64,000 bases of DNA, taken from positions 648,029-712,028 of the forward strand of contig CBDBDT010000001.1 in assembly GCA_965203975.1 (NCBI GenBank). The letters run 5' to 3'. Under the pieces are notes generated by a model that had not been told where the DNA came from, searched no databases, and worked only from the letters and a program-made list of their open reading frames with translations. The stretch is from Dehalococcoidia bacterium. Its GTDB lineage: Bacteria; Chloroflexota; Dehalococcoidia; Lucifugimonadales; UBA3495. The position numbers were made by a program, and so were the translations under genes. Positions 24,624-37,669 of the stretch are shown here, piece after piece (position 1 is the stretch's first letter; each line of letters opens with the position of its first letter).

Positions 24624-24694
24624 GCGATCCCATAGGTATTTCCCAAAGCTTTTGGTTGTGAGCGTGCCCGCACACGAATCGTTAGGATGGATTC

Positions 24695-26461
24695 ATGGAA
24701 GCTAACATCTTGACCTTACAAACTTTGTTTGGCTCTGATGTGTCATATCGCATACCCCAATTCCAACGCCCCTATGCTTGGAAAAAGGATGATCAGTGGA
24801 AGCCTCTTTGGGAAGACGTGCACAACCTCACTGGAACCATCCTGTCCCGGCCAGACCGGAAAGTGCCACCGCATTTTATGGGTGCAATAGTTTTGCAGAG
24901 TCAAGAGAGTGGTACGGGAGAAGTAGTGAAGCGGATTGTGGTAGATGGCCAACAACGTCTTACCACGCTCCAACTCCTCATTCGGGCAGCTCAGGACGCT
25001 TTCCAAAGCCTGAATGATACTGAAAGGGCTAACAGATTGTCTGAATTAACCCTTAATACCGAAGACCATTGGGGAGGCGACTCAGATAACCAGACCAAAA
25101 TCCGCCAGTCTAACCTCAACGACCAACGGGCCTTTCAAGAGGCGATTCGAGGCTCTAGTGATGGACATGGGTCGCTGCGGGCCATCGGTGAAGCGTTCGA
25201 GTATTTTAAGGGAGTAGTAATGGAATGGCTGAACGAGGAACCAGCTATCAGGGTCGGCCGTTCTAATGCCTTGGAAGAAGCCCTCACTAAGTATCTGCAA
25301 ATCGCAGCCATAGATTTGGATGATGGAGAAAAACCGCACTTTATCTTCGCCGTCCTAAACACCCGTGCTGAACCTTTGAAAGAGTCCGACCACATCAAAA
25401 ATACTGTAATGTATGAAGCCGACGTCATTGATGACGCCCATAAAGCCGGCGAATTGTGGGGGATGTTCGACAACAATGATTGGTGGCGCCAAGAAACTAA
25501 AGAAGGACGACTGAACCGCATCCATCTGGACAGATTTCTCAATTATTGGATTGTCGTCCGGACGCAAGAGGACATTACATCGGATCGCGTGTCGGCTCGA
25601 TTCAGCAGTTATGTTGAATCTGCCCGTTCATCAATCGAGGACATTACGGCAGATATCCGCAAGGCTGGTTTGATATACCAGGATATGGAGGAAGCTCGAT
25701 ACCCGGGCATAGAAACTTTCCTGCGTCGAATGAAGACCATGGAGCTTGGCGCGGTTATGCCTCCACTTCTGTGGCTCTACACGAACGAAGTTCCAGAGGA
25801 AGAACGGAACAGGAGCATCAAGGCGCTAGAGAGTTTTCTTGTCAGGCGCATGCTCTGCGGACTTGGTTCTCAAGGACTCAACAGGCTATTCATCGAACTT
25901 GTCGGCAGGCTGGAGGCAAGGGGAGCCGACCGCGTTGATGAGAGTCTGGTCGGCTTTCTCAACAGGCAAACCGTCGAAAATCGCATTTGGCCCAAAGATG
26001 GGCTTCTAGCAGAAAACCTTATTCAAAAACCTCTACGGGGTAGCACAAGCCGACAAAGGATGGTTTTGGAAGCCATCGAGATCGCTATGAGAAGCGACAA
26101 GACCAATGTCTTCGAGCAATTTCGGAACCTCACCATCGAACACTTAATGCCCCAATCATGGGAACGTAACTGGCCATTGCCACAAGATGTCTCCGATAGA
26201 AACGAGGCTTCGGAAGTCAGGAACCGCGCCATCAAGGAAATCGGGAATTTGACGCTGGTTACTGATAAATTGAATCCGAGCCTTTCCAACGATCCGTGGG
26301 GAAAGAAAAAGGAGACTCTTGCCCAACATACAGCGCTTCGCTTGAATTGGGAATTGCTTAACCCTGATCCTGAGGTGTGGGACGAGGAGGCTATATATGC
26401 GCGTAGCGAGGAGTTACACGGAAGAATTCTAAAGATTTGGCCTCATGCCGACCTACTCTAG
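24695..26461 (+). CDS. DUF262/DUF1524 protein, GmrSD-like (putative modification-dependent type IV restriction nuclease)
   Basis: N-terminal QFQRPYAW and VVDGQQRLTTL (DUF262/ParB-like). C-terminal TIEHLMPQS ... GNLTLVTDKLNPSLSN (DUF1524 His-Me finger). The gene is visibly AT-richer than its flanks. Confidence 0.85.
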   Translation: MEANILTLQTLFGSDVSYRIPQFQRPYAWKKDDQWKPLWEDVHNLTGTILSRPDRKVPPHFMGAIVLQSQESGTGEVVKRIVVDGQQRLTTLQLLIRAAQDAFQSLNDTERANRLSELTLNTEDHWGGDSDNQTKIRQSNLNDQRAFQEAIRGSSDGHGSLRAIGEAFEYFKGVVMEWLNEEPAIRVGRSNALEEALTKYLQIAAIDLDDGEKPHFIFAVLNTRAEPLKESDHIKNTVMYEADVIDDAHKAGELWGMFDNNDWWRQETKEGRLNRIHLDRFLNYWIVVRTQEDITSDRVSARFSSYVESARSSIEDITADIRKAGLIYQDMEEARYPGIETFLRRMKTMELGAVMPPLLWLYTNEVPEEERNRSIKALESFLVRRMLCGLGSQGLNRLFIELVGRLEARGADRVDESLVGFLNRQTVENRIWPKDGLLAENLIQKPLRGSTSRQRMVLEAIEIAMRSDKTNVFEQFRNLTIEHLMPQSWERNWPLPQDVSDRNEASEVRNRAIKEIGNLTLVTDKLNPSLSNDPWGKKKETLAQHTALRLNWELLNPDPEVWDEEAIYARSEELHGRILKIWPHADLL

Positions 26462-26541
26462 TCCAGATTTGGCGCAATCGAACTCTGAGCTGGTCAGATT
26501 ATCCTCCGCGTGTGACAGGCGTGGCGAAATAACCTCACCGC

Positions 26542-27404: not shown

Positions 27405-29108
27405 CTAAAAAAGTTCATCGATTTCCCGTTCCAGGCGCTCCCGGGGGCTTTCCGACACCACGCCGGTAGGGGGCGCATAGCCCCGGCTGAACTGGGTGTA
27501 GGAGTCCTGGGAGCCGTACTCCCGGGTATGCACCACCACCGGCATCGGGACGGCGTGCCCGAAGATGAGCGCTTGCTGCTTCGCTTCCAGGCGGGAGAGC
27601 ACCCCTCGGAGCTGACGCGCTCCGGCGGTGCCTGCCAGGACGGCGTCAGTGTCCCGGTCGTTGTCCAGCAGGCAGGTGAGGCGGGTGCCCAGCTGGCTCA
27701 TCACCTCGGAGTCGATGGCGCTGGGCCGCTGGTCAATGACCATCAGCGTGACGTTGTACTTGCGCAGCTCCCGGGCGATGGTCCCGAAGATGGTCTGCGA
27801 CGCGACCGCCGGGTTCAGGAACTTGTGGGCTTCCTCGATGACTATGACCACCGGCCGAGGGTCCTTGACCTTCCCGCCCTCGGCCATCTCCTTCAGCTCA
27901 ACATAACGGTTGTGGATGCGCCGGGACAGGAGGTTGCTGAGGAGAATGTAGGCGTTCAGGTCCCGGCCATGCCGCCCGAACTCCAGGACTACGTGCTTTC
28001 CTTTCTCCAGGTGCTCCACGATCCTGGCAGCCGTGTCATAGCGGGTGTTGGCCTGCATGAAATCAAACCGCTTGAACCGGAGCAGGCGGTTGTGCAGCGC
28101 GCCCAGCGCCTGGGCGTTGACCCCGACATCGTTGGCCAGGCCGGCGATGTCCTCGGTACCCTCCATGGACAGGAAGCGTTCCAGCCAGCGCTGCTGCCCG
28201 AACCTCTGCTGCAGGTTGTAGGCCGCGGAGGCCGCCACCTCGGAAAGGTTCAGCGTCTCCCGGAGCAGTTCGATGTCTTCCGGCTCCACCTCCCCGTAAC
28301 CGATGCGCACCACTTCGTCCGCCGAGGTCCCCCGCCAGCGGTCCCGCTCCTCGTCCAGCGTGAAGGTGGAAACGTTGGCCGGGAAAAGCTGTTTCAGGCC
28401 CTTGACCGACACGTTGCGGTCCGAGTCCTGGCCGCTCCAGCCGTATTCGCTGTGCATGTCGAAGATGAGCGTGGACGCCTGCCCCCCCTGGAGGATGCCC
28501 AAGAGGAGCAGCCGGGTCAGGAAGGTCTTGCCCGTGCCGCTCTTGCCGAACACGCCGATGGACCGTTTGACCAGCTCATCCAGGTCCAGGCATACCCTGG
28601 TGTCCATGTCCAGCGGGTTCCCGATCCAGAAGTGCCTCTCGTCTTCCTGTCCGAAAACCAGGTCCACATCCTGCTGGGATGCGGCGTGGGTTGGGGAGAA
28701 GTGGGCCGGGATGGTCTTGGCGGCGACAGGCGCTTCCTGGGAACCCCCCGCGGCAACGGGCATCGTCAGATGGGGCAAGATGTTCACCGTCCCGTAGGCG
28801 ACGGTCCCGGATATCGCCCGGGCCACCAGCGCATCGTCCGCCTCCGGGGGCAAGTGGGACAGGCGGCTGTCGCTGCTGGCCAGGGATACGTCCGTCACGA
28901 CGCCGAAGAACCTCTGGCGTTCTCCCTGGATGGTCACGAAGGAGCCGACCTTCACATCCTCCACGGACACATTCCCGGTGGAGTCCAGCCTGGCCTGCAC
29001 TCCCTGGCTCAGGGAGCCGCCGATGACCTGTCCCAACCGGCGGCCTTCGAGACCCCCTTCCCATGCGCCCGCGCCATTGGGGAACAGCCCGTGGCCGCCG
29101 TCCGTCAC
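27405..29108 (-). CDS. HerA/FtsK-superfamily ATPase (DUF87-type) with N-terminal HAS-barrel
   Basis: Walker A GKSGTGKT (nt 28524..28547) and Walker B VVIVIEEAHKF. N-terminal barrel-like segment LGQVIGG...GSFVTIQGERQRFFGVVTDV. The GTG start overlaps the upstream stop (GTGA). Confidence 0.85.
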   Translation of the reverse strand: MTDGGHGLFPNGAGAWEGGLEGRRLGQVIGGSLSQGVQARLDSTGNVSVEDVKVGSFVTIQGERQRFFGVVTDVSLASSDSRLSHLPPEADDALVARAISGTVAYGTVNILPHLTMPVAAGGSQEAPVAAKTIPAHFSPTHAASQQDVDLVFGQEDERHFWIGNPLDMDTRVCLDLDELVKRSIGVFGKSGTGKTFLTRLLLLGILQGGQASTLIFDMHSEYGWSGQDSDRNVSVKGLKQLFPANVSTFTLDEERDRWRGTSADEVVRIGYGEVEPEDIELLRETLNLSEVAASAAYNLQQRFGQQRWLERFLSMEGTEDIAGLANDVGVNAQALGALHNRLLRFKRFDFMQANTRYDTAARIVEHLEKGKHVVLEFGRHGRDLNAYILLSNLLSRRIHNRYVELKEMAEGGKVKDPRPVVIVIEEAHKFLNPAVASQTIFGTIARELRKYNVTLMVIDQRPSAIDSEVMSQLGTRLTCLLDNDRDTDAVLAGTAGARQLRGVLSRLEAKQQALIFGHAVPMPVVVHTREYGSQDSYTQFSRGYAPPTGVVSESPRERLEREIDELF

Positions 29109-29713
29109 TTTCCAACCCCGGAGAGAATGGTATTGATGCGGGCGACGTCACCGGCCAGTTGCGCCGCCAGCGCCCGCCCCGCCCGTAGGGCCACATCCGG
29201 ACCGTCGGACCGGCCGTCAACCATTCCCAGCAGGCACGACCTGATTACGTCGTCGGAGGCCGGACATTCGGGACGCGCCAAACGGGCCAGGAATCCCGGA
29301 TCGGCGGCGAACATGGCGTATTCTTCATCCCCGCAAGTGTAAACGAAAGCGTGGACCCGTGGCGGCAGGGTCGGCAACCACGGGGCGAACCCCGAGGATC
29401 CCGCGGCGCCGACGGTGACCGCATCAAACCGGGAAGTCAGCAGCCGGGATAGCTGGGGATTTTCCAGCAGTACTTCGTCCTCCGTCTCATGGTCCCGTCC
29501 CCGCGCCAGGACCGGTCGGCTGGGGTCCAGCGGTTCGGTGCGGACATTGTTGACCACTCCATAGATTCCCGGGTGCCCGGCCCGGATGAAACTGCCCAGA
29601 GGCGGCGAGCCATACAGCTCGTAGCATTGGACGGTAAACGAGGTGGAATCTGCGGCGATGACCTCTCCGACCCGCGCCGCCGCTGATTGCTCTCCAGGTT
29701 GACCCACCGTCAT
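29105..29713 (-). CDS. 202-aa protein with stand-alone HAS-barrel-like N-terminus, partner of the HerA-like ATPase
   Basis: ATG 29713 behind GGGAGGGAG. VGEVIAADSTSFTVQ...GSFIRAGHPGIYGVVNNV parallels the ATPase N-terminus. Its stop overlaps the ATPase start. Confidence 0.65.
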   Translation of the reverse strand: MTVGQPGEQSAAARVGEVIAADSTSFTVQCYELYGSPPLGSFIRAGHPGIYGVVNNVRTEPLDPSRPVLARGRDHETEDEVLLENPQLSRLLTSRFDAVTVGAAGSSGFAPWLPTLPPRVHAFVYTCGDEEYAMFAADPGFLARLARPECPASDDVIRSCLLGMVDGRSDGPDVALRAGRALAAQLAGDVARINTILSGVGK

Positions 29714-30501: not shown

Positions 30502-31407
30502 ATGACTGACCAGCCTTCCCGCATCGGCTTCATTGGAATCGGCTTGCTTGGCCGGGGGCTGGCCCTCGCGCTCTCGGCCAAGGGGTATCTGGTTACCGGG
30601 GCAGCCAGCCGGTCGTTTTCTTCCGCCCAGTGGCTCTCGGAACGGGTGGACGGTTGCCGCGCCTACGGCAGTCCCCAGGCCCTGGCTGACGACTCTGACC
30701 TGGTGTTTATAACCACTCCTGACTCGGTCATCGCTGAAGTAGCCTCCCAGGTCACGTGGCGGAGCGGCCAGGGTGTCGTCCATTGCAGCGGCGCGTCGTC
30801 CACCGAGCTTTTGCGGCCCGCCGCGCTTCAGGGAGCGGCTGTTGGCTCCATGCATCCCTTTCAGACCTTCGCCGGCCTGACCAGGTCCGAAGATGCCGAG
30901 GCCCGCCTTAAAGGGATTGCTTTCGCCGTTGCCGGCGAACTGTGGCTGCCGGCGTACCTGGACCGGATGGCCCGTGCCCTGGGAGGCCATCCCGTCAATA
31001 TCCCGGACCGGGAACGTCCCCTCTACCACGCCTCGGCCATCCTGGGATGCGGGTATCTCGCTGCCCTGTTGCAGGCGGCGGTTGACTGCTGGACCGCCAT
31101 CGGATACACGGAGGAAGAAGCCCTGGCGGCTCTGGTGCCTCTTGCCGGGACCACTATCGAGAATATCGGCCGGAACGGGATCGCGCCCAGCGTCACCGGA
31201 CCCGCCGTGCGGGGCGACTTGTCCACAATGAACACGCACCTGGCAGCCCTGGGAGACGCTGTCCCGTCCGGGGCCCTGGCTTACGGCGCGCTTACATCCG
31301 CTTCCCTGGCCCTGGCCGAGCGGCGGGGCGTACCCCCGGAAGCTGTCGCGGGAATGCGGGCACTGGCCAACCAATTTCTGCGGAGGTGGGATTCATGCCC
31401 AGAGTGA
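30502..31407 (+). CDS. Rossmann-like plus DUF2520 domain protein (candidate ketopantoate reductase role)
   Basis: IGFIGIGLLGRGLALAL dinucleotide fold. Later segments are HPFQTF, LYHASAILG and TGPAVRGD, as in DUF2520 proteins. It overlaps the panB start. Confidence 0.75.
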   Translation: MTDQPSRIGFIGIGLLGRGLALALSAKGYLVTGAASRSFSSAQWLSERVDGCRAYGSPQALADDSDLVFITTPDSVIAEVASQVTWRSGQGVVHCSGASSTELLRPAALQGAAVGSMHPFQTFAGLTRSEDAEARLKGIAFAVAGELWLPAYLDRMARALGGHPVNIPDRERPLYHASAILGCGYLAALLQAAVDCWTAIGYTEEEALAALVPLAGTTIENIGRNGIAPSVTGPAVRGDLSTMNTHLAALGDAVPSGALAYGALTSASLALAERRGVPPEAVAGMRALANQFLRRWDSCPE

Positions 31408-32234
31408 CGATCCGGGACATTGCCCGGATGAAGTCCCGGGGAGAGCGCATCCCCATGATCACCGTCTACGACTACACCTCCGCCCGGTTGGCCGACGCCG
31501 CGGAAATCCCGATAGTGCTGGTGGGCGACAGCCTGGGAATGGTCGTCCTCGGCTACGATTCCACCATTCCGGTGACCATGGACGATATGGTCCATCACAC
31601 CAAGATGGTCGCCCGGGGCTGCCGGCAAGCGCTGATAGTTGCCGACCTGCCCTTCATGACCTACCAGGTGGACCAGGGCCAGGCTTTGACCAACGCCGCC
31701 CGTCTCCTCCAGGAAGGAGGCGCCCAGACGGTAAAGCTGGAGGGGGGCGAAGCCGTGGCGGAGACTGTCCACCGCATCGTCCAGGCTGGAATTCCAGTCA
31801 TGGGCCACATTGGCCTGACGCCCCAATCGGTCAACGCCTTCGGCGGCTTCCGGGTCCAGGGACGCCTCCGGGCCGAAGCGGTGCAGCTGCTCAAGGATGC
31901 CCAGGCCCTCCAGGACGCCGGGGCCTACTCGGTGGTGCTGGAGTTGGTGCCGGCTCCCCTGGCCAGTCTGATATCCCAGAGGCTGGCCATTCCCACCATC
32001 GGCATCGGTGCTGGTCCCGAGTGCGACGGCCAAGTGCAGGTGCTCCATGACATGCTGGGCCTGTTCACCGACTTCATCCCGAAGCACGCCAAGCAGTATG
32101 CAACCCTGGGAGAAGCGATGAAGCAGGCATTCATCGACTATGCCAGGGAGGTGCGGGACGGAGAATTTCCAACGGAGCAGCAGAGTTTCACCATGAGCCA
32201 AGAGGTCCTGGCGGAGCTGACAGTCCCGCAGTGA
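31395..32234 (+). CDS. panB: 3-methyl-2-oxobutanoate hydroxymethyltransferase
   Basis: MITVYDYTSARLADAAEIPIVLVGDSLGMVVLGYDSTIPVTMDDM is a canonical PanB pattern. Confidence 0.95.
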   Translation: MPRVTIRDIARMKSRGERIPMITVYDYTSARLADAAEIPIVLVGDSLGMVVLGYDSTIPVTMDDMVHHTKMVARGCRQALIVADLPFMTYQVDQGQALTNAARLLQEGGAQTVKLEGGEAVAETVHRIVQAGIPVMGHIGLTPQSVNAFGGFRVQGRLRAEAVQLLKDAQALQDAGAYSVVLELVPAPLASLISQRLAIPTIGIGAGPECDGQVQVLHDMLGLFTDFIPKHAKQYATLGEAMKQAFIDYAREVRDGEFPTEQQSFTMSQEVLAELTVPQ

Positions 32235-32254
32235 CCCCCTTCCCGGACGACGAG

Positions 32255-32285
32255 AAAAAGCGCCGCTGGTTGAGCGGCGCTTTTT
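32255..32285. terminator. bidirectional rho-independent terminator (panB / convergent membrane-protein gene)
   Basis: AAAAA-GCGCCGCT-GGTTG-AGCGGCGC-TTTTT. Confidence 0.75.
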
Positions 32286-32313
32286 GATGGCCTTGCGGAG
32301 ATTGGGGCAGGGC

Positions 32314-33078
32314 CTAGTTGACCCGGTTTTCCTCAATGCGTTCCACGAACAACCGGAGCTCGGCGAGCACATCGTCTACCAGCTTGGGCCGGGTCTGCTC
32401 GAATACGAGCTGCTCACTGTCGGAAACCCCGGTGGGGTCCAGTTGCAGCTGAACGTGGTAGGTTCCTTCGGGGTTGCTCAAGGTCACTTCCTGGTTGACC
32501 AGGGCCACCCGCAGCTTGGGTGTGAATATGCTGTGGGTGTAGGGCTGGTCATAGAACTGGGCGACCTGGATGGTGCCGTGTTCCCGGTTGTAGCGGACCA
32601 ACCGCTTGGGGCCAACCGGATAGTGGACGGTTATCTGGGCGTCGTCGAGGGGCTGTCCCTTCAGGTACCCGTCCATCTGGATCGTCCGCACGATAGTGTC
32701 CTGGTTCTGGTTGTAAAGGGCGACGTACATGGTGGTTTGCCGGTTGGTGGTGTCAACCTGGTTGGTGTACCAGACCTGCTGCCCGAATTCGGGGGGAAGG
32801 TTTACCTCCACAAAGCCCTCGCCCAGGACCTCGCCAAAGGTCACGATGGGGATGGGAATGCCGTCCTCGCTGACCTGCTGGGCCGGGACTTCCGGTTCGG
32901 CAGCGGCGGTGTTGACGCCGGATGCAGGCTGGGCGGCGCCGGCCTCGGCCTGGTCGGATCCCGGCAGCAGGAAGGTGAAGGCCAGTCCGCCGACCACCAA
33001 TATCGCAATTACCAGCGCCGAGATCATGATAATCTTGCCGGCTCCTCCCCGCTTCTCCGGAGAACGAGAGACTCTCAT
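32314..33078 (-). CDS. N-terminally membrane-anchored protein with beta-rich extracytoplasmic domain, unknown family
   Basis: Strong SD AAGGAGGA, a single TM (IIMISALVIAILVVGGLAFTFLL), then an Ala/Pro/Glu linker and a ~180-aa domain. It lies 175 bp downstream of the tubulin-like gene on the same strand. Confidence 0.7.
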   Translation of the reverse strand: MRVSRSPEKRGGAGKIIMISALVIAILVVGGLAFTFLLPGSDQAEAGAAQPASGVNTAAAEPEVPAQQVSEDGIPIPIVTFGEVLGEGFVEVNLPPEFGQQVWYTNQVDTTNRQTTMYVALYNQNQDTIVRTIQMDGYLKGQPLDDAQITVHYPVGPKRLVRYNREHGTIQVAQFYDQPYTHSIFTPKLRVALVNQEVTLSNPEGTYHVQLQLDPTGVSDSEQLVFEQTRPKLVDDVLAELRLFVERIEENRVN

Positions 33079-33253
33079 AAGTTCCTCCTTAGTGGATTCT
33101 GACTTGTTGATTCTAACGATGGGGCCGCTCAGAGCTCTTGGACAAGTTGCCTGTCAAGGGCGCGAAAGCGCCGGCCCTTCAATCAAACGATGCGCTCAAA
33201 TGACGCGCTTGAGGGTCCTGCACGCAGGGCCCGTCAGGCTCTGGACTGGGCTG

Positions 33254-34519
33254 TTACAGGTTGGGCAGCAGTTCTCCCGCCCGGGTCACCTCCTCCCACA
33301 GATTCTCGCGGTTGGCCCGCTTGTCCCTGGTCTCGCCCATCATCTCGGTAGCCCGCTTGTAGAACCACTCCACCTTTTCCATGGCGGCCCCTAGGCCGAT
33401 GTTGCAGACCATGACGGTAACGCTGATGGTGTCCGACGTGCGGCCCGGGTAGGTGCCCTTGCGTCGTCCCGCCCCGGGGACCCGGTCCGCGAAGATGGTG
33501 TCCATCATCTCGACGATTTCCTCGGTGGTTTCATGGGGCGGGCCGCTGAACAACCCCAGCACGTTCTGGGCGTCGTACATTATTCGCCCGTCCGCGAGAT
33601 GACCGCACTCGACGGATAGCTCCGCCAGCGCCGAGTGCACCACGTTCTGGGCGCGTTCGATCTGGGCCTTGGAAACCGAGAAATGCCGGTACTTGCCGGC
33701 TCCCGGCCGGAAGCGGCTCAACATCGAGGCGGACGTGTCCTTCTGCGGAGGCACCGAGGATGTGGACACGCCGATGGCCGCCGGGCCCTTGAGGATGCGG
33801 ATCACGTCGTTGGCGTCCAGCACCTCGCCGATATACCGGCGGTCGGTTTCCTCGCCCACGCACATGATGTCCATGAACGAGTCCGCGATGCGCCGGTTGA
33901 TCTGGGCATAGTTCACGCCCAGGGGTTCGTTCTTGCGGACGAACTTCTGGTTGTCCACCAGGAACACCGCGTCGGCGTTGCAGTTTTCCATCACCTTCTT
34001 GATGCAAGTCGCCGTGTTGACCACGCTGTCCGGTTCGTCGTACTGGCTCTCGAAGGGAAGGACCAGCATGCAGTAGACCGGCTTCTTGAACTCTTCCTTG
34101 AGCAGATCGGCCACCACTCCCACCGAGCCTGATCCCGTGCCGCCCGCGGTGGTGGCGCAGACCAGGATGGCGTCAGCCCGGAACACGTCGCCGTGGTCCC
34201 GGATCGTCGACGTTATCTTCCTAGCGTTGCGGCGCGCCTGCTCGGCTCCGTCCGCGTTGACCTTGCCGGCGCCCCTGCCCCGGAACTCGTCGGTGGTCCC
34301 CATCAGGATGGTGTGATCGTCCGTCTGGGGAATGTGGTTGAGACCGTAGAGGTCCCCGGCGCCGAGGTTCATGGCGAAAACGCCGGTGTTGATCGGGTCG
34401 CTGTCCGATCCGGTGAAAATCCGCACGTGCCGGTTCTTCCAGACCCACTCTCCCATGGCAGCAAACTCGTCGGCGATGTTCGAACCGCCTTGGCCGGCTC
34501 CCACGACTACAAACTTCAT
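33254..34519 (-). CDS. divergent tubulin/FtsZ-superfamily GTPase (tubulin-type signature)
   Basis: T1-like VVGAGQGGSNIADEF (nt 34484..34501). CATTAGGTGSGSVG (nt 34127..34147) matches [SAG]-G-G-T-G-[SA]-G. A T7-like VLDANDV lies ~105 aa further on. SD AAGGAGTGAGG. Confidence 0.8.
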   Translation of the reverse strand: MKFVVVGAGQGGSNIADEFAAMGEWVWKNRHVRIFTGSDSDPINTGVFAMNLGAGDLYGLNHIPQTDDHTILMGTTDEFRGRGAGKVNADGAEQARRNARKITSTIRDHGDVFRADAILVCATTAGGTGSGSVGVVADLLKEEFKKPVYCMLVLPFESQYDEPDSVVNTATCIKKVMENCNADAVFLVDNQKFVRKNEPLGVNYAQINRRIADSFMDIMCVGEETDRRYIGEVLDANDVIRILKGPAAIGVSTSSVPPQKDTSASMLSRFRPGAGKYRHFSVSKAQIERAQNVVHSALAELSVECGHLADGRIMYDAQNVLGLFSGPPHETTEEIVEMMDTIFADRVPGAGRRKGTYPGRTSDTISVTVMVCNIGLGAAMEKVEWFYKRATEMMGETRDKRANRENLWEEVTRAGELLPNL

Positions 34520-34965
34520 ACCTCACTCCTTGCGCTGCCCGGCCCGCGATGTTTGCCTGTTGGCCCCAACCCCACTTGCCGACAACAATAAAATAAGACT
34601 GGCAGGAACGAATACTGCTGGCTACCTGCGGGGGATTGTACATAACCTCTTGCCCGGATTTGCTAGAGGATTTTTGCCAAGTTTCGCCGCGTTTGCGAAT
34701 CGGCCGGTATCTTTTCCGTTCCGGTGCCTTTCCAGCGATTGAGTTGGGATGGGCGGGGCCGGTCGCTGTCGGAGAAAATTGCAAAACCCGGACCCAAGCT
34801 ATAGTGGCAACGGACTACGTCAGTAGCGTTGCTGAAGTCGTTTCCATGGAAGGTTGGGGCGCCAGGGTGAAGAATCGGATCAGCTGAGGTGTATCCGTCT
34901 TATATGGGCTGGCACAGTGGGATTATTATCAGGGATTGGCTAGGTGGAACTTATCAATCTGCCCG

Positions 34966-35715
34966 TTATGCGTCAGGCCTCCTTAGAGGCAGTTCCATCT
35001 TGTAGGTAAACATGTAGTGCCGGTGAATGTCTCGGAACCTGTCCTTGAACCGGCTCTCGATATCGTCCATGGCCGGACTCAACCCGGCGGCCGCGAGAAT
35101 CTCCTGGGTGCTCGTACGGATGTCTTCCCAACTCGTGGCTTCCTGGAACTCTTTCCACTGCCCAGGGAAGAAACTGCTGGCCATTTTGGCCGCAGCGGTT
35201 GCCGCTCCGCTCCAGTGAAGAACGGGTTCTCCCAAGAGGTATGGAAAGTTGGTTTGCCGCTTGAGAAAGTCGCCTGTGGCGCTGCCGACGGGGACAACGG
35301 TGGCGTGTGGTTTTGCCACCAGCTTCAGTTCTGCCAAGAGCATCGGGTACCATCGGTTGAACTCCTGCTCTTGGGTTCTGCCCTTGGCCACCTTGGGCGG
35401 TACGGCGCACTTCCCCAGATCCGTCAGGTAGTACGTCTCTCCGGGTTTGCATAGGTGTCGGTGAGCGCCGTAGTTCAGAAGTAAGTCGCCCAGGGAGAGC
35501 AGCAGGTTGAAGCCAGGAGGAGGCATCGGTGGGAACTCGCCGGGCGGGAGTTTATCCGCATCCTCTGGGCTAATGCTGGTCATTTTACCTACGAGAACGA
35601 AGTCCACCGGACCTCGAGGCGCAAGATATCGCAGAAAGTGATGTTGGTGGTCCTTTGCTGACTCACGCCATTGGGTCTGCAGGGCATCGTATTGTTCTTT
35701 GAAGGTCTGAGTCAT
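34966..35715 (-). CDS. uracil-DNA-glycosylase-superfamily-like protein (weak, motif-based)
   Basis: Segments DFVLVGKMTS, YYLTDLGKCAVPP, TVVPVGSATGDFL and VLHWSGAA follow the order of the UDG-fold motifs. AT-richer region. Start at ATG 35715. Confidence 0.4.
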   Translation of the reverse strand: MTQTFKEQYDALQTQWRESAKDHQHHFLRYLAPRGPVDFVLVGKMTSISPEDADKLPPGEFPPMPPPGFNLLLSLGDLLLNYGAHRHLCKPGETYYLTDLGKCAVPPKVAKGRTQEQEFNRWYPMLLAELKLVAKPHATVVPVGSATGDFLKRQTNFPYLLGEPVLHWSGAATAAAKMASSFFPGQWKEFQEATSWEDIRTSTQEILAAAGLSPAMDDIESRFKDRFRDIHRHYMFTYKMELPLRRPDA

Positions 35716-35931
35716 GGTTATCCTGGCGGGGATAATCCTGTCTCGTTTTCCGAGTGGCACTTGCTGGTCCTGGCGTTTAAACAAGCCAGCGGAGCTTAGA
35801 GTCCGCCGACGCATAAGCCTCAAGTCTTCCTACGGTACTATTTTTCTCGAGACATTTCCATTTCTTGAGTCGTTCTTATCTCCGCCTCCTTGGGCCACTC
35901 GTCCCGTCTCTTGATCGACGCGAGCACTGTT

Positions 35932-36312
35932 CTACCGTCTGGCAAGACCGCGATGGGTTCCGTGAGAGGCAACCGGATGAACGACCCGCCAAGCCTTGGC
36001 GGTGCTCCCTTCTCCCTTAATTACGTTTCTTAAGTCAGAGATGAGAACATGCGGGTGCACCTTCTCCTGGGTATACAGGGGCGGAACGTTCACCACCAGG
36101 TCGGCCAGGTCCTGCTCGTCCTTGCCCCGCCAGACCAGTTGCGGGTCCAAGTCGAGCTTGCGCCGCTGGTAAGCCACCCGCAGCGGCGCCTCCTGTTCCT
36201 CCCGCACTAGCGACTGGTACTCCGCCGTGGGGATGTTGGTGCGGGTGTCCTGCTCGTGGCGCAGGGCTTCAACCTGCTTGGCGGCGGCGCGGGTGCGGGG
36301 TGGTCGGGCCAC
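35932..36312 (-). pseudogene. N-terminal fragment of an adenine-specific DNA methyltransferase (R-M remnant)
   Basis: ...DLDPQLVWRGKDEQD...VNVPPLYTQEKVHPHVLISDL resembles, from memory, the conserved N-terminus of type III/IIG-like N6 methylases. No catalytic DPPY/FxGxG motifs. The ORF ends after 126 aa. Confidence 0.5.
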
Positions 36313-36334
36313 GGGTGTACCTCCGGTTCAGTGG

Positions 36335-36757
36335 TTAGTGATTCACAAATGGGTTCAGTATGGTCAGTTGCTCAATGCGCTGGCCGTGCTGCATATCTTC
36401 GCTGTACAGGCGGGCACAGTCGGCCTCAAGCGCCGTTGCGATGACGAGGGAATCGTAGAAGGAGAAGCCGTAGCGACTCCCAATTGCGATAGCGTCCTGG
36501 TAAAGGGCGGGCGAGGGATATATTTGCCACAGGGGGAAAAGCACGTCATCCATCAGGACGCGAAGCTGGCCGACCGGCGTTCCCAGTCTCCCGATCAACA
36601 CATTGAGGGTTTCCTGCACGACCTGAAAGCTGATGCAGCCGGTTCCCTCGATTACACTTCGGGAAACCAACTCCATTGCCTTCTGTCGTTTCTCAGGGAA
36701 TCTATTATCCACCGAGTATACGAGTACGTTGCTGTCCAGGAAGTCATCGGCGCTCAT
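36335..36757 (-). CDS. vapC: PIN-domain toxin VapC
   Basis: MSADDFLDSNVLVYSVD... with a PIN acidic-residue pattern. 14-nt overlap with the upstream antitoxin gene. Confidence 0.9.
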   Translation of the reverse strand: MSADDFLDSNVLVYSVDNRFPEKRQKAMELVSRSVIEGTGCISFQVVQETLNVLIGRLGTPVGQLRVLMDDVLFPLWQIYPSPALYQDAIAIGSRYGFSFYDSLVIATALEADCARLYSEDMQHGQRIEQLTILNPFVNH

Positions 36758-36971
36758 TCATCTCTTCCCGGGTAAACTTTCGTCCGCCAGTGTCTATGAC
36801 TTCGGCCACGGCATTCAAGGCAGCAATGGCCCTCTCACCTTTGCGCTTTCGCCCCACATAGTCAGCCAGCCATTGCCTGAACTCAGCGTTCAGCGTGGTG
36901 TTCTTGGTTGCCGCTATGCGGCGAGCCTCCTCGATCAGCCCCTCATCGGCGCTCAGCGTGATGTTTTTCAT
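36744..36971 (-). CDS. vapB: VapB-type antitoxin (RHH-like)
   Basis: 75 aa, MKNITLSADEGLIEEARRIAATKNTTLNAEFRQWL. Overlaps vapC. Confidence 0.8.
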   Translation of the reverse strand: MKNITLSADEGLIEEARRIAATKNTTLNAEFRQWLADYVGRKRKGERAIAALNAVAEVIDTGGRKFTREEMNERR

Positions 36972-36989
36972 GTCTGTCCAGGCTCCTCT

Positions 36990-37034
36990 TCAATGAACCG
37001 GATTGTTTGCGTCCAGAATATCATCGGCGCTCAT
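36990..37034 (-). pseudogene. 14-codon stub of a second vapC (MSADDILDANNPVH*)
   Basis: Same ATGAGCGCCGATGA overlap architecture with the upstream antitoxin as in the intact pair. Truncated after 14 codons. Confidence 0.6.
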
Positions 37035-37248
37035 TCATCTCGTCCCGGGTGAACTTGCGCCCACCGGTGCCATAGGTGGCCTGCAACTCGCGAATGGTAG
37101 CCATGGCTTTCTCTGCCTGCCGCTTTCGGCCCACATAGCCGGCAAGCCACCGGCGGAACTCGGCGTTAAGTGTTGTGTTGCGAGAAGCGGCAATGCGGCG
37201 CCCCTCCTCGATTAGCGCCTCATCGGCGCTGAGTGTTATATTCTTCAT
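37021..37248 (-). CDS. vapB: orphan paralogous VapB-type antitoxin
   Basis: 75 aa, near-collinear with the 36744..36971 product (MKNITLSADE[A/G]LIEE..., identical C-terminus GGRKFTR[D/E]EMNERR). Confidence 0.75.
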   Translation of the reverse strand: MKNITLSADEALIEEGRRIAASRNTTLNAEFRRWLAGYVGRKRQAEKAMATIRELQATYGTGGRKFTRDEMNERR

Positions 37249-37290
37249 GGCAATGGCGAATCCCCTTTCACTGTTATCGTGTACACTATT

Positions 37291-37452
37291 CTAGTGTCCT
37301 CCAGTCAAAGAGTACATATCAACCAACTGCGCCAGGCCGGCCTCAGTATCGTACACGTCGGTAAGCTCGGCGAAAGCCCAGCGGCCGTACTGGCCCAGGA
37401 GGCAGGCTAGTCCGCGCCCAATCTTTCCCGTCTTTCCCGCGCAGGCGGGAAT
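37291..37452 (-). pseudogene. possible C-terminal remnant of a restriction/helicase subunit
   Basis: Start-less open frame ...KIGRGLACLLGQYGRWAFAELTDVYDTEAGLAQLVDMYSLTGGH*. The GRWAF-E-x-x-D tail resembles, from memory, C-termini of type III-like Res/helicase proteins encoded next to such methylases. Confidence 0.3.
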
Positions 37453-37669
37453 CTAGACCCCTGTTGTCTGTTCCGCGCCGTATCGTGTTGACCGTTCACC
37501 GGCAGTTTGACCAAACTGGCACTCGGCGATTGCCCCGTCCTGGTTTCCCCTCCATCCCCGTTATAATGTGCCCGCCGCCGCTGCCGGACTCGGCCCCGGC
37601 TTTTCCCCGGGTAATAGACCCCGTAGAACGCACCCCGCGGAACGAACCCCACAGAAAGGAGATTCGGCT

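What the first reader, a model, noticed from the sequence alone, without database searches (positions are those of the whole stretch)
33254..34519. Divergent tubulin/FtsZ-superfamily GTPase with a tubulin-type signature, outside any cell-division cluster
This 421-aa ORF has a strong SD. Its N-terminus MKFVVVGAGQGGSNIADEF looks like the T1 nucleotide-binding loop. CATTAGGTGSGSVG (nt 34127..34147) fits the PROSITE tubulin signature [SAG]-G-G-T-G-[SA]-G, not the FtsZ-type GGGTGTG. About 105 residues later, VLDANDV sits where the T7 synergy loop (N-x-D-x-x-D in FtsZ) is expected, so the protein may be polymerisation-competent. None of the usual ftsZ neighbours (ftsA, ftsQ, mur, ddl) are present. 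Instead the gene sits between an AT-richer TA/defence islet and a gene for a membrane-anchored protein. Non-FtsZ tubulin homologues in bacteria are rare (BtubAB, TubZ/PhuZ of plasmids and phages, FtsZl1/FtsZl2; CetZ in archaea), and from sequence alone I cannot place this one in any of them.
Basis: partly seen in the sequence, partly recalled or inferred. Interest (0 to 1): 0.8.

Follow-up and report, generated by a model that had tools for sequence, protein, structure and literature searches.

The report
Bacterial CetZ-like tubulin with membrane partner
This gene encodes a bacterial relative of CetZ, the tubulin-like protein that shapes archaeal cells, and across wall-less Dehalococcoidia/SAR202 bacteria it always sits next to a gene for a small membrane-spanning protein, which suggests an untested filament system tied to the cell envelope.

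Summary
Pfam gives Tubulin plus CetZ_C, both above threshold. The three solved archaeal CetZ structures are the best sequence and fold matches, ahead of FtsZ, TubZ and PhuZ. It fails the FtsZ equivalog model (39.6 bits against a cut-off of 295). It belongs to a large, very conserved family (70% identity or more) confined to Dehalococcoidia/SAR202. In a rough tree this family is sister to archaeal CetZ. One survey (PMC9871819) mentions the family in passing; no function is known. New here: the gene forms an obligate pair with the downstream 254-aa gene. That gene encodes an invariant 12-residue cytoplasmic tail, one transmembrane helix, a variable linker and a β-rich outer domain with no structural match. 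The pairing holds in 53 of 53 informative genomes and persists in relatives at 40–50% identity. The upstream toxin-antitoxin/restriction islet is a strain-specific insertion. Most likely mechanism (inferred): GTP-driven CetZ-type filaments tethered to the envelope through the partner, in bacteria reported to lack peptidoglycan.

The parts
33254..34519 (-). cetZ-like gene, 421 aa (stop codon 33254..33256): tubulin/FtsZ-superfamily GTPase of the Dehalococcoidia CetZ-like family
   Evidence: ORF. Pfam Tubulin 78.8 bits and CetZ_C 36.5 bits, both above cut-off. PDB phmmer best hits 4b46, 4b45 and 3zid. AF2 model plus Foldseek top three are CetZ1, CetZ2 and M. thermophila CetZ. dN/dS 0.05-0.08 against L001-L003.
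34526..34530 (-). Shine-Dalgarno AGGAG, 6 nt upstream of the ATG
   Evidence: Read directly from the sequence.
34478..34501 (-). T1 nucleotide-binding loop, residues 7-14 (GAGQGGSN)
   Evidence: G7, G9, Q10, G11, G12, S13 and N14 are invariant in 51 homologues. Aligns with CetZ1 GFGQAGGK and FtsZ GVGGGGGN.
34385..34450 (-). Clade-specific insertion in the H1-S2 loop, residues ~24-45, with invariant W25, W27, N29, R30, R33, T36 and G37. It is a candidate lateral, membrane or partner contact surface (inferred).
   Evidence: About 12-13 residues longer than archaeal CetZ and FtsZ in the alignment. Invariant columns. Low to medium pLDDT.
34127..34147 (-). T4 tubulin signature, residues 125-131 (AGGTGSG)
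   Evidence: G126 to G131 are invariant. The serine at position 6 is the tubulin/CetZ type, not the FtsZ GGGTGTG.
33803..33823 (-). T7 synergy loop, residues 233-239 (VLDANDV). D235 and D238 align with CetZ1 D215 and E218.
   Evidence: HMMER alignment to 4b46. V233 to D238 are invariant. E218A is the GTPase-blocking CetZ1 mutant (bioRxiv 10.1101/2024.04.08.588506).
33710..33727 (-). M-loop hydrophobic patch, residues 265-270 (SMLSRF), aligning with the CetZ1 amphipathic M-loop tip (G)LLSRL
   Evidence: Alignments. The role of the CetZ1 M-loop is described. The family consensus here is SLLGR. The model has low confidence in this region.
33257..33271 (-). Conserved extreme C-terminal tail, residues 417-421 (LLPNL; family pattern [LIV]-P-[NDS]-L)
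   Evidence: P419 and L421 are invariant and L418 is nearly invariant. The tail is present in all loci and in distant subfamilies. It is analogous to the essential CetZ1 tail LESLF.
33079..33253 (-). Intergenic spacer between the cetZ-like gene and its partner (175 nt here, about 75-180 nt in relatives). No terminator or significant structure was found.
   Evidence: No minus-strand terminator in the scan. RNA fold z-score -0.64.
33084..33090 (-). Shine-Dalgarno AAGGAGG of the partner gene
   Evidence: Read from the sequence.
32314..33078 (-). Partner gene, 254 aa: a bitopic (N-in, predicted) membrane protein of unknown family, obligately paired with the cetZ-like gene
   Evidence: Directly downstream on the same strand in 53 of 53 GTDB loci that extend past the gene. 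Starting from the partner, a Tubulin+CetZ_C gene lies directly upstream in L147 and L148, and cut upstream ORFs ending in the same conserved tail lie there in L149 and L150. No Pfam, NCBIfam, PADLOC or PHROG family. dN/dS 0.15-0.19.
33043..33078 (-). Partner N-terminal tail, residues 1-12 (MRVSRSPEKRGG; motif M-[RK]-x-S-R-x-P-E-x-R-G-G), predicted cytoplasmic. It is the proposed docking peptide (inferred).
   Evidence: It is the most conserved segment of the partner (0.74 against 0.55 for the globular domain). M1, R5 and R10 are invariant and S4, P7 and E8 nearly so. Related motifs occur in the P0142 and P0145 subfamily partners.
32959..33042 (-). Partner transmembrane helix (residues ~13-40)
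   Evidence: AF2 helix 13-35. A hydrophobic stretch is conserved in all orthologues.
32317..32850 (-). Partner extracytoplasmic β-rich domain plus C-terminal helix (residues ~77-254). It follows a Pro/Ala-rich linker of variable length (36-122 aa across orthologues).
   Evidence: AF2 pLDDT 78-94 over most of the domain. No significant PDB fold match (best E 2.9e-3, TM 0.27 or lower) and no profile match. Linker lengths.
34520..34770 (-). Conserved 5' region upstream of the cetZ-like gene (presumed promoter/leader). The synteny break with relatives lies at 34770/34771.
   Evidence: blastn synteny with L001-L003 runs to 34770-34772. No sigma-70 consensus match was found here.

Best explanation
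The gene encodes a bacterial CetZ-like cytoskeletal GTPase. SHOWN: it has the tubulin/FtsZ fold. It keeps all the nucleotide-binding loops and the T7 acidic pair that completes the active site of the neighbouring subunit in a protofilament. Its closest relatives with solved structures are the archaeal CetZ proteins. It is under strong purifying selection. It forms an invariant two-gene unit with a downstream gene for a single-pass membrane protein. INFERRED: the protein assembles into GTP-dependent protofilaments on the cytoplasmic face of the membrane. The partner acts as a dedicated transmembrane adaptor. Its invariant, positively charged 12-residue N-terminal tail (the only part predicted to face the cytoplasm) would dock onto the filament. 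Its flexible Pro/Ala-rich linker and β-rich outer domain would reach into the proteinaceous (S-layer type) envelope. In Dehalococcoidia/SAR202, which are reported to lack peptidoglycan, such a module would organise the envelope or cell shape, as CetZ1 does in the wall-less archaeon Haloferax volcanii. The lineage probably arose through an old exchange between archaea and Chloroflexota. The neighbouring TA/restriction islet plays no part.
For: Identity: Pfam Tubulin (E 8.4e-22) and CetZ_C (E 4.3e-9), both above gathering. PDB phmmer gives CetZ1 8.6e-23 over the full length, CetZ2 2.2e-14 and M. thermophila CetZ 2.2e-8, against about 5e-6 or weaker for FtsZ. The AF2 model (pTM 0.69) has Foldseek top three CetZ1, CetZ2 and CetZ at E 9e-20 to 2e-16 with target-normalised TM 0.70-0.80, then FtsZ (2.6e-15 and weaker) and TubZ (1.2e-14 and weaker).

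Catalytic and assembly motifs are invariant in 51 homologues: T1, T4, the T7 D235/D238 pair (equivalent to CetZ1 D215/E218) and the C-terminal tail. CetZ1 E218 and the CetZ1 C-terminal tail are functionally essential.

Selection: dN/dS 0.05-0.08.

Module: the partner lies directly downstream in 53 of 53 informative GTDB loci although it is only 30-45% identical. The reverse look-ups from the partner find the cetZ-like gene upstream: full Tubulin+CetZ_C genes in L147 and L148, and cut ORFs ending in the same tail in L149 and L150. The pairing persists in subfamilies at 50% and 40% identity (L143, L145). The 35% subfamily instead sits next to a different bitopic envelope protein with a tiny conserved cytoplasmic tail.

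The partner's N-tail is its best-conserved segment.

Host biology: SAR202 and most Dehalococcoidia lack peptidoglycan and have an S-layer-like envelope (PMC11994032, PMC10444878, PMC10284905). Archaeal archaellum clusters were also transferred into this lineage (PMC12488501).
Against: No experiment exists for any bacterial member; polymerisation, GTPase activity and localisation are all unknown. Physical contact between the two proteins is inferred only from gene adjacency. No covariation was seen between the CetZ-like C-tail and the partner N-tail, and the C-tail is kept in relatives that lack this partner, so the docking site is unknown. The partner's topology rests on the positive-inside rule and an AF2 helix only. 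The AF2 model of the GTPase is of medium quality (mean pLDDT 66, with a weak C-terminal domain). The partner's outer domain has no recognisable fold, so contact with the envelope is a guess. I could not show that this particular genome lacks peptidoglycan or MreB, or that it has a separate ftsZ. A phage-like relative next to a ParB-like gene shows that the scaffold can serve other purposes.
Confidence: 0.55

Rival explanations
1. It is a cell-division protein: a second (or the main) Z-ring-forming tubulin homologue of peptidoglycan-less Dehalococcoidia, with the partner acting as its membrane anchor at the septum, in the way that ZipA or SepF anchor FtsZ.
For: It has the same superfamily and an intact polymerisation interface. 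A bitopic anchor with a short cytoplasmic peptide recalls FtsZ anchors (knowledge of the family). JGI annotates members as 'cell division GTPase FtsZ'. SAR202 lacks ftsW and ftsI (PMC11994032), so its division machinery is atypical.
Against: It scores 39.6 bits against the 295-bit cut-off of the FtsZ equivalog TIGR00065 and has no FtsZ_C domain. It is nearer to CetZ, and in Haloferax division is carried out by FtsZ1, FtsZ2 and SepF while CetZ proteins are implicated in cell shape (abstracts; Duggin 2015 as I recall it). ftsZ and ftsA are reported in SAR202, although that annotation may partly reflect this gene. There is no division-gene context in the 56 loci.
Confidence: 0.15
2. It positions envelope machines (for example the horizontally acquired archaellum, chemosensory arrays or S-layer insertion sites) rather than determining shape as such.
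For: Archaella were transferred from Methanotecta-type archaea into Dehalococcoidia and Anaerolineae. From memory, CetZ1 in Haloferax is also reported to affect assembly and positioning of the motility machinery. The partner has a long flexible extracellular linker and an outer domain.
Against: No archaellum, chemotaxis or S-layer gene lies near the pair in the window or in the 56 loci. Co-occurrence with archaellum clusters was not tested.
Confidence: 0.12
3. It is a DNA-segregation or positioning tubulin of a mobile element (TubZ/PhuZ-like).
For: A 47%-identical relative (P0143) lies on phage-like contigs directly after a ParB-like gene. TubZ and PhuZ are weaker fold matches.
Against: The window gene sits in conserved chromosomal synteny with panB, panC and housekeeping genes across species. 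There is no DNA-binding adaptor gene next to it; its partner is a membrane protein. Pfam Tubulin_2 is below threshold. There are no relatives in IMG/VR.
Confidence: 0.04
4. It is part of a defence island, functionally linked to the adjacent TA/restriction genes.
For: It lies close to PIN/antitoxin genes, a Type III methyltransferase fragment and, 7 kb away, a GmrSD-type restriction enzyme.
Against: The islet 34771..37555 is missing from the nearest relatives (~91% nucleotide identity across the region), where about 28 bp take its place, and none of its genes occurs in any of the 56 loci. PADLOC finds nothing for the CetZ-like protein or its partner.
Confidence: 0.02

Closest known systems
Archaeal CetZ (H. 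volcanii CetZ1/CetZ2, PDB 4b46/4b45; M. thermophila CetZ, 3zid)
   Same: It has the Tubulin and CetZ_C domain pair. These are the best sequence and fold matches. It shares the GQ-type T1, the GGTGSG T4, the V-x-D-x-x-[DE] T7, a long M-loop with a hydrophobic L-[SG]-R patch, and a short hydrophobic C-terminal tail.
   Different: The host is bacterial. Identity to CetZ1 is only about 21-25%. In a rough NJ tree it branches as a sister clade, not inside archaeal CetZ (PMC9871819 calls these sequences 'CetZ-like'). It carries a 12-13-residue H1-S2 insertion with invariant Trp and Arg residues. It has an obligate bitopic membrane partner; I know of no such partner described for archaeal CetZ, but I did not examine archaeal CetZ neighbourhoods here.
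FtsZ with its membrane anchors (FtsA, ZipA, SepF)
   Same: It has the same superfamily fold and would assemble as a GTP-dependent protofilament. The filament-plus-membrane-tether logic is similar, and a conserved C-terminal peptide follows a variable linker.
   Different: It fails TIGR00065, has no FtsZ_C domain, has a different T4 (S rather than T) and lacks the Asn of N-x-D-x-x-D. There is no dcw cluster. The partner is unrelated to FtsA, ZipA or SepF.
TubZ/TubR and phage PhuZ
   Same: These are divergent bacterial or phage tubulin homologues. A phage-like relative of this family lies next to a ParB-like gene.
   Different: Fold and sequence matches are weaker than to CetZ. The gene is chromosomal, with no DNA-binding adaptor.
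Other Dehalococcoidia CetZ-like subfamilies (P0149 and P0168 clusters, 33-35% identity)
   Same: They share the same host class, the CetZ_C-type C-terminal domain and an L-P-x-L tail. The P0149 gene is also adjacent to a gene for a bitopic envelope protein with a minute conserved cytoplasmic tail.
   Different: The neighbour is a different protein: about 520 aa, type I, with Ig-like repeats and a C-terminal TM followed by RRRIYYY, and it lies upstream rather than downstream. These subfamilies lack the H1-S2 insertion.

Membership tests
Tubulin/FtsZ superfamily | Tubulin/FtsZ GTPase domain (Pfam PF00091) above the gathering score | tested here: met
   78.8 bits against a cut-off of 33, residues 4-195.
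Tubulin/FtsZ superfamily | Nucleotide-binding loops T1 and T4 (signature GGTG[SA]G) and T7 acidic residues | tested here: met
   GAGQGGSN 7-14, GGTGSG 126-131 and D235/D238 are all invariant in 51 homologues.
Tubulin/FtsZ superfamily | Two-domain tubulin/FtsZ fold | tested here: met
   AF2 model with pTM 0.69. Foldseek finds 972 PDB matches at E<=1e-3, and all 50 listed are CetZ, FtsZ or TubZ. Model quality is only moderate in the C-terminal domain.
Tubulin/FtsZ superfamily | GTP-dependent polymerisation | not testable with these tools
   Needs purified protein.
CetZ (archaeal tubulin-like cell-shape proteins) | CetZ-type C-terminal domain (Pfam PF21011) | tested here: met
   36.5 bits against a cut-off of 21.6, residues 200-390. 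PMC9871819 reports the same for Chloroflexota sequences.
CetZ (archaeal tubulin-like cell-shape proteins) | Closer to solved CetZ proteins than to any other tubulin-superfamily branch | tested here: met
   phmmer against PDB and Foldseek both rank CetZ1, CetZ2 and M. thermophila CetZ first.
CetZ (archaeal tubulin-like cell-shape proteins) | Branches inside the canonical (archaeal) CetZ clade | tested here: inconclusive
   An NJ tree of 93 sequences without support values places the family, together with other Dehalococcoidia subfamilies, as sister to the archaeal CetZ clade. PMC9871819 treats these sequences as 'CetZ-like' outside the supported canonical node.
CetZ (archaeal tubulin-like cell-shape proteins) | Role in cell-shape change (rod development) with GTPase-dependent dynamics | not testable with these tools
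   Needs genetics and imaging in a cultivated Dehalococcoidia or SAR202 strain.
FtsZ | Passes the FtsZ equivalog model TIGR00065 | tested here: not met
   39.6 bits against a cut-off of 295.2.
FtsZ | FtsZ_C domain, GGGTGTG signature and N-x-D-x-x-D T7 | tested here: not met
   No FtsZ_C hit. The signature is GGTGSG, and Val replaces the Asn in T7.
FtsZ | Location in a division/cell-wall (dcw) cluster | tested here: not met
   No ftsA, ftsQ, mur or ddl in the annotated parts of the window or in the regions compared across the 56 related loci.
TubZ / PhuZ (plasmid and phage tubulins) | Encoded on a plasmid or phage with an adjacent DNA-binding adaptor (TubR-like) or centromere | tested here: not met
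   Chromosomal synteny is conserved across species, and the neighbour is a membrane protein. Only the distinct P0143 subfamily is phage-like.
FtsZl1 / Tubulin_2 proteins | Pfam Tubulin_2 (PF13809) above the gathering score | tested here: not met
   16.8 bits against a cut-off of 27, over a 35-residue stretch around T4 only.
Bacterial tubulin BtubA/B and eukaryotic-type tubulin | Tubulin_C domain and closest similarity to α/β-tubulin; paired btubA/btubB genes | tested here: not met
   No Tubulin_C hit. BtubA E 0.5 and γ-tubulin about 7e-4, against 8.6e-23 for CetZ1. There is no second tubulin gene nearby.

The most novel reading that the evidence does not exclude
Peptidoglycan-less Dehalococcoidia/SAR202 use an archaeal-style cytoskeleton. 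CetZ-like filaments would be coupled across the membrane, through the invariant N-tail of a dedicated bitopic adaptor, to the S-layer-type envelope, taking the place of the MreB/peptidoglycan logic of other bacteria. The module would be part of a wider archaea-to-Chloroflexota transfer of envelope biology, alongside the archaellum. Phages of these bacteria would have captured a copy of the same tubulin and paired it with a ParB-like protein.
Probability: 0.3. Interest if true: 0.8.

Novelty: new variant of a known kind. Interest (0 to 1): 0.62.

Why it matters
CetZ is regarded as an archaeal cytoskeletal family. Here a sister family is nearly universal and extremely conserved in a bacterial class that includes SAR202, a widespread and abundant clade of the dark ocean that is reported to have lost its peptidoglycan wall. 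How such wall-less bacteria set their shape and organise their envelope is unknown. The obligate pairing with a small transmembrane protein gives a concrete two-component hypothesis that cultivated SAR202 and Dehalococcoidia strains now make testable. It also gives a possible handle on what tethers CetZ-type filaments to membranes, which, as far as I know, has not been worked out for archaeal CetZ either. It adds a second case, beside the archaellum, of archaeal-type cell-biology machinery in Chloroflexota. It also warns that 'ftsZ' calls in these genomes may really be this gene.

Tried and rejected
- The exact-sequence look-up of the protein found nothing on record.
- The Rfam gathering scan of the whole window found nothing.
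- The promoter and terminator scan of 32000..35200 gave no minus-strand promoter upstream of the gene and no terminator between the two genes.
- The RNA fold of the 175-nt spacer is no better than shuffles (z -0.64), so there is no evidence for an attenuator.
This says nothing about the rest of the genomes.
- PADLOC found nothing for either protein, so the defence role is rejected.
- The partner has no Pfam, NCBIfam or PHROG family, no significant PDB fold match and no PDB profile match; the FliL and flagellin hits at E 0.3-0.4 cover only the TM region.
- I looked for covariation between the CetZ-like C-tail and the partner N-tail across 50 pairs. None was convincing, and the tail is kept in subfamilies without the partner, so I dropped the idea that the tail binds the partner.
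- IMG/VR scans with P0143 and with the family alignment found no relatives.
- I could not obtain taxon names for most intermediate representatives, which are unnamed metagenome singletons.
Full report
**1. The observation**

The ORF is real. Window 33254..34519 on the minus strand encodes 421 aa starting MKFVVVGAGQGGSN. AGGAG lies 6 nt upstream of the ATG. VLDANDV is at residues 233-239. The match to the superfamily is far beyond chance: Pfam Tubulin E 8.4e-22 (78.8 bits, cut-off 33) and CetZ_C E 4.3e-9 (36.5 bits, cut-off 21.6).

**2. What the protein is**

Against all PDB sequences the best matches are the three solved CetZ proteins. H. volcanii CetZ1 (4b46) scores E 8.6e-23 over residues 1-382, CetZ2 (4b45) 2.2e-14 and M. 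thermophila CetZ (3zid) 2.2e-8. FtsZ starts at about 5e-6, TubZ at 2e-4, γ-tubulin at 7e-4 and BtubA at 0.5.

I built an AlphaFold2 model from 51 homologues. It has mean pLDDT 66.4 and pTM 0.69, with a good N-terminal domain and a weaker C-terminal domain. Foldseek against the PDB gives the same order:
- CetZ1 8.6e-20, CetZ2 1.6e-17 and CetZ 1.8e-16, with target-normalised TM 0.70-0.80;
- then FtsZ (2.6e-15 and weaker) and TubZ (1.2e-14 and weaker).

Viral structures match less well. A phage FtsZ-like protein scores 1.5e-14 and PhuZ about 1e-5.

The FtsZ equivalog model TIGR00065 gives 39.6 bits against a cut-off of 295. No FtsZ_C or Tubulin_C domain is found, and Tubulin_2 is below threshold.

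In the alignment with CetZ1, D235 and D238 fall on D215 and E218. E218 is the T7 residue whose E218A mutation blocks GTPase turnover and hyperstabilises CetZ1 polymers. The hydrophobic M-loop tip that characterises the CetZ1 subfamily (LLSRL) aligns with SMLSRF. The short hydrophobic C-terminal tail that CetZ1 needs for rod formation (LESLF) has a counterpart in the invariant ...LLPNL. The 'tubulin-type' T4 signature and a T7 loop without the FtsZ asparagine are therefore the ordinary CetZ pattern. They are not an anomaly.

**3. Where it occurs**

The organism is a Dehalococcoidia (Chloroflexota) bacterium with 63% GC. The nearest genomes (L001-L003, about 91% nucleotide identity across the region and 97-98% protein identity) are Dehalococcoidia MAGs.

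The family is large and tightly conserved. More than 1,247 clusters at 90% identity scored E<=1e-3. The 120 best are all at least 70% identical, and those that carry a source name are named Chloroflexota, Dehalococcoidia or SAR202. 56 GTDB species representatives carry it. An alignment of 51 members has 78% mean column identity. dN/dS against the nearest relatives is 0.05-0.08.

Among 1.84 billion representative proteins clustered at 50% identity, only 262 score E<=1e-3 and 27 score E<=1e-30. The series runs as follows:
- the protein's own cluster;
- a few small clusters at 39-50% identity;
- further clusters at 31-37%, two of which (P0149, P0168) carry Dehalococcoidia names;
- canonical archaeal CetZ, for example from Nitrososphaerales.

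A rough neighbour-joining tree has no support values. It puts the target clade and the other Dehalococcoidia subfamilies together as sister to archaeal CetZ, with E. coli FtsZ as outgroup.

The literature held in the library mentions this only once. Santana-Molina et al. [quoted passage not shown] No other paper combines CetZ with Chloroflexota, Dehalococcoidia or SAR202. I found no functional statement about the family.

**4. The neighbourhood and the main new result**

The 254-aa gene downstream (32314..33078, minus strand, with its own AAGGAGG) is the invariant companion of the cetZ-like gene. A profile built from it finds an orthologue directly downstream on the same strand in 53 of the 56 GTDB loci. 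The three exceptions are contigs that end before that position. The partner is far more divergent than the GTPase (30-45% against 70% or more) but is still under purifying selection (dN/dS 0.15-0.19).

I also started from the partner. In all four places examined (L147-L150) the gene directly upstream is the cetZ-like gene. L147 and L148 have complete Tubulin+CetZ_C genes. L149 and L150 have upstream ORFs cut by the contig start that end in the same conserved tail.

The partner has four parts:
- an N-terminal tail, M-[RK]-x-S-R-x-P-E-x-R-G-G;
- one transmembrane helix;
- a Pro/Ala-rich linker that varies from 36 to 122 residues;
- a β-rich domain of about 150 residues followed by a C-terminal helix, modelled with pLDDT 78-94 over most of it.

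The 12-residue tail is the most conserved part of the protein (mean majority fraction 0.74, against 0.55 for the domain and 0.39-0.44 for the linker and TM). By the positive-inside rule it is the only part that faces the cytoplasm, where the GTPase is. The outer domain has no significant structural or profile match and no Pfam, NCBIfam, PHROG or PADLOC family.

The pairing extends beyond the family:
- The 50%-identity subfamily (P0142, locus L143) is followed by a 59-aa TM protein and a 357-aa homologue of the partner (VPEVDFGEVLEEGFVEL...).
- The 40% subfamily (P0145, L145) is followed 4 nt later by a protein with a basic tail, a TM helix and a Pro/Thr linker; the contig ends before any domain. 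Its tail contains a related [SA]-R-x-x-E-[KR] motif.
- The 35% Dehalococcoidia subfamily (P0149; 80 metagenome loci, all 90% identical or more, so this is effectively one lineage) has a different neighbour. In the loci inspected, an upstream same-strand gene encodes a type I membrane protein of about 520 aa. It has a signal peptide, Ig-like repeats, a C-terminal TM helix and a seven-residue cytoplasmic tail, RRRIYYY.

So a CetZ-like gene lies next to a gene for a bitopic envelope protein with a minute conserved cytoplasmic peptide in the four lineages above (the target family and the P0142, P0145 and P0149 subfamilies). Other subfamilies differ. P0156 is followed by two FtsH-like genes. P0151 is flanked by small multi-TM proteins. 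P0143 has a phage-like context.

**5. What does not belong to it**

Compared with L001-L003, the window carries a 2.8-kb insertion at 34771..37555, where the relatives have about 28 bp. The insertion holds:
- a 285-aa ORF with no homologues;
- a fragment of a Type III methyltransferase (PADLOC 2.3e-24);
- a PIN-domain gene and two DUF6364-like antitoxin genes.

Its GC content is 54-59% against 63-65% for the flanks. None of these genes occurs in any of the 56 loci.

In the relatives, a DinB-like gene is transcribed divergently about 200-400 nt upstream of the cetZ-like gene. On the other side lie panB, a DUF2520 reductase-like gene, a HerA-like ATPase gene with an unknown partner, panC, a second strain-specific islet (a GmrSD type IV restriction enzyme, 24628..26541) and ETF genes. 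The rest of the annotated window is metabolic.

**6. Mechanism**

Shown:
- the fold;
- all GTP-contacting loops and the trans-acting T7 acidic pair;
- strong constraint over the whole surface;
- an obligate gene pair.

Inferred:
- The protein forms GTP-dependent protofilaments, like CetZ1, which polymerises in vitro and acts at the cell envelope.
- The partner is its transmembrane adaptor. The conserved tail would bind the filament, and the linker and outer domain would reach the envelope.

I could not identify the docking surface. The C-terminal L-P-x-L tail does not co-vary with the partner tail. It is also retained in subfamilies without this partner, including the phage-like one. It may therefore serve subunit-subunit contacts, as proposed for CetZ1. 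The clade-specific H1-S2 insertion (invariant W25, W27, N29, R30, R33, T36, G37) is an alternative candidate.

The biological setting fits an envelope or shape role. SAR202 and most Dehalococcoidia lack peptidoglycan synthesis genes and have an S-layer-like coat. Peptidoglycan was lost once, before the marine radiation. ftsZ and ftsA are reported in SAR202 but ftsW and ftsI are not. Archaellum clusters were acquired from archaea (PMC11994032, PMC10444878, PMC10284905, PMC12488501).

Two caveats apply. I could not verify these traits for this particular genome. Published 'ftsZ' calls may include this gene, since JGI names members 'cell division GTPase FtsZ'.

**7. Rivals**

- A division role is possible, but it is disfavoured by the distance from FtsZ, the CetZ affinity and the context.
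- A role in positioning envelope machines such as the archaellum is a variant I cannot separate from shape control.
- DNA segregation is unlikely for this chromosomal, membrane-partnered gene, although it may apply to the phage-like relative.
- A defence role is rejected.

**8. Novelty and verdict**

The kind (CetZ-type tubulin homologue) is known, and the bacterial clade has been noticed once in a phylogenomic survey. Four points are new here, as far as the held literature shows:
- the size and conservation of the family;
- the obligate bitopic partner with its invariant cytoplasmic peptide;
- the recurrence of that logic in diverged subfamilies;
- a phage-like offshoot.

I file it as a new variant of a known kind. 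Interest is moderately high. The module is a concrete, testable candidate for the cytoskeleton of a very abundant wall-less bacterial lineage, but every functional step is still inference.

Noticed in passing
L137:4229-5491 (also L138, L139); P0143: A CetZ-like protein that is 47% identical to the window's (same H1-S2 insertion, tail ...GLPSL) lies on phage-like contigs. These carry a same-strand array of small genes with PHROG hits (phrog_3230 at 1e-44, nucleoside deoxyribosyltransferase, radical SAM, an Acb1/RNA-ligase-like gene). A ParB-like gene lies directly upstream and there is no membrane partner. It may be a phage tubulin captured from the host family. No relatives were found in IMG/VR.
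   Followed up: partly
window 34771-37555: A strain-specific 2.8-kb insertion (about 28 bp in relatives at ~91% nucleotide identity) with lower GC. It holds a 285-aa ORF with no homologues or families (34966..35823, minus), a 126-aa N-terminal fragment of a Type III methyltransferase (35932..36312, minus), a PIN toxin gene (36335..36757, minus) and two tandem 75-aa DUF6364-like antitoxin genes (36744..36971 and 37021..37248, minus).
   Followed up: partly
window 24628-26541: A second strain-specific islet: a GmrSD-type (type IV, modification-dependent) restriction endonuclease gene (24695..26461, plus) with GC3 of 0.53 against about 0.85 for its neighbours. It is absent from L002 and L003 and replaced by other DNA in L001. 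It sits between the ETF genes and panC.
   Followed up: partly
window 27405-29713: A HerA-like ATPase gene (DUF87 plus HAS barrel; 27405..29108, minus) overlaps by 4 nt an upstream 202-aa gene with no family (29105..29713, minus). The pair is conserved only in the five closest genomes. PADLOC matches HerA models, but no known partner (NurA, Sir2 or DUF4297) was identified.
   Followed up: no
L061:4195-5748, L062:4370-5959, L082:4325-5908: In the 35%-identity Dehalococcoidia CetZ-like subfamily (P0149), the upstream same-strand gene in the loci inspected encodes a type I surface protein of about 520 aa. It has a signal peptide, four or more Ig-like repeats, a C-terminal TM helix and the cytoplasmic tail RRRIYYY. 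This is a second, unrelated envelope protein with a tiny cytoplasmic tail next to a CetZ-like gene.
   Followed up: partly
L140:5001-10312: Another CetZ-like subfamily (P0156, 34% identity, GC 42%) is followed on the same strand by two tandem FtsH-like genes (AAA plus Peptidase_M41).
   Followed up: no
L002:11408-12209: In the near-identical relative L002, the partner gene is split into two reading frames. This is either an apparent frameshift or an assembly error in a long-read MAG.
   Followed up: no
window 30502-32234: panB (31386..32234, plus) and a DUF2520/Rossmann-like gene (30502..31407, plus; possibly a PanG-type ketopantoate reductase) overlap by 22 nt. They are convergent with the partner gene, an arrangement kept in 33 of the 56 loci. 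panC lies 4 kb away on the other strand.
   Followed up: no
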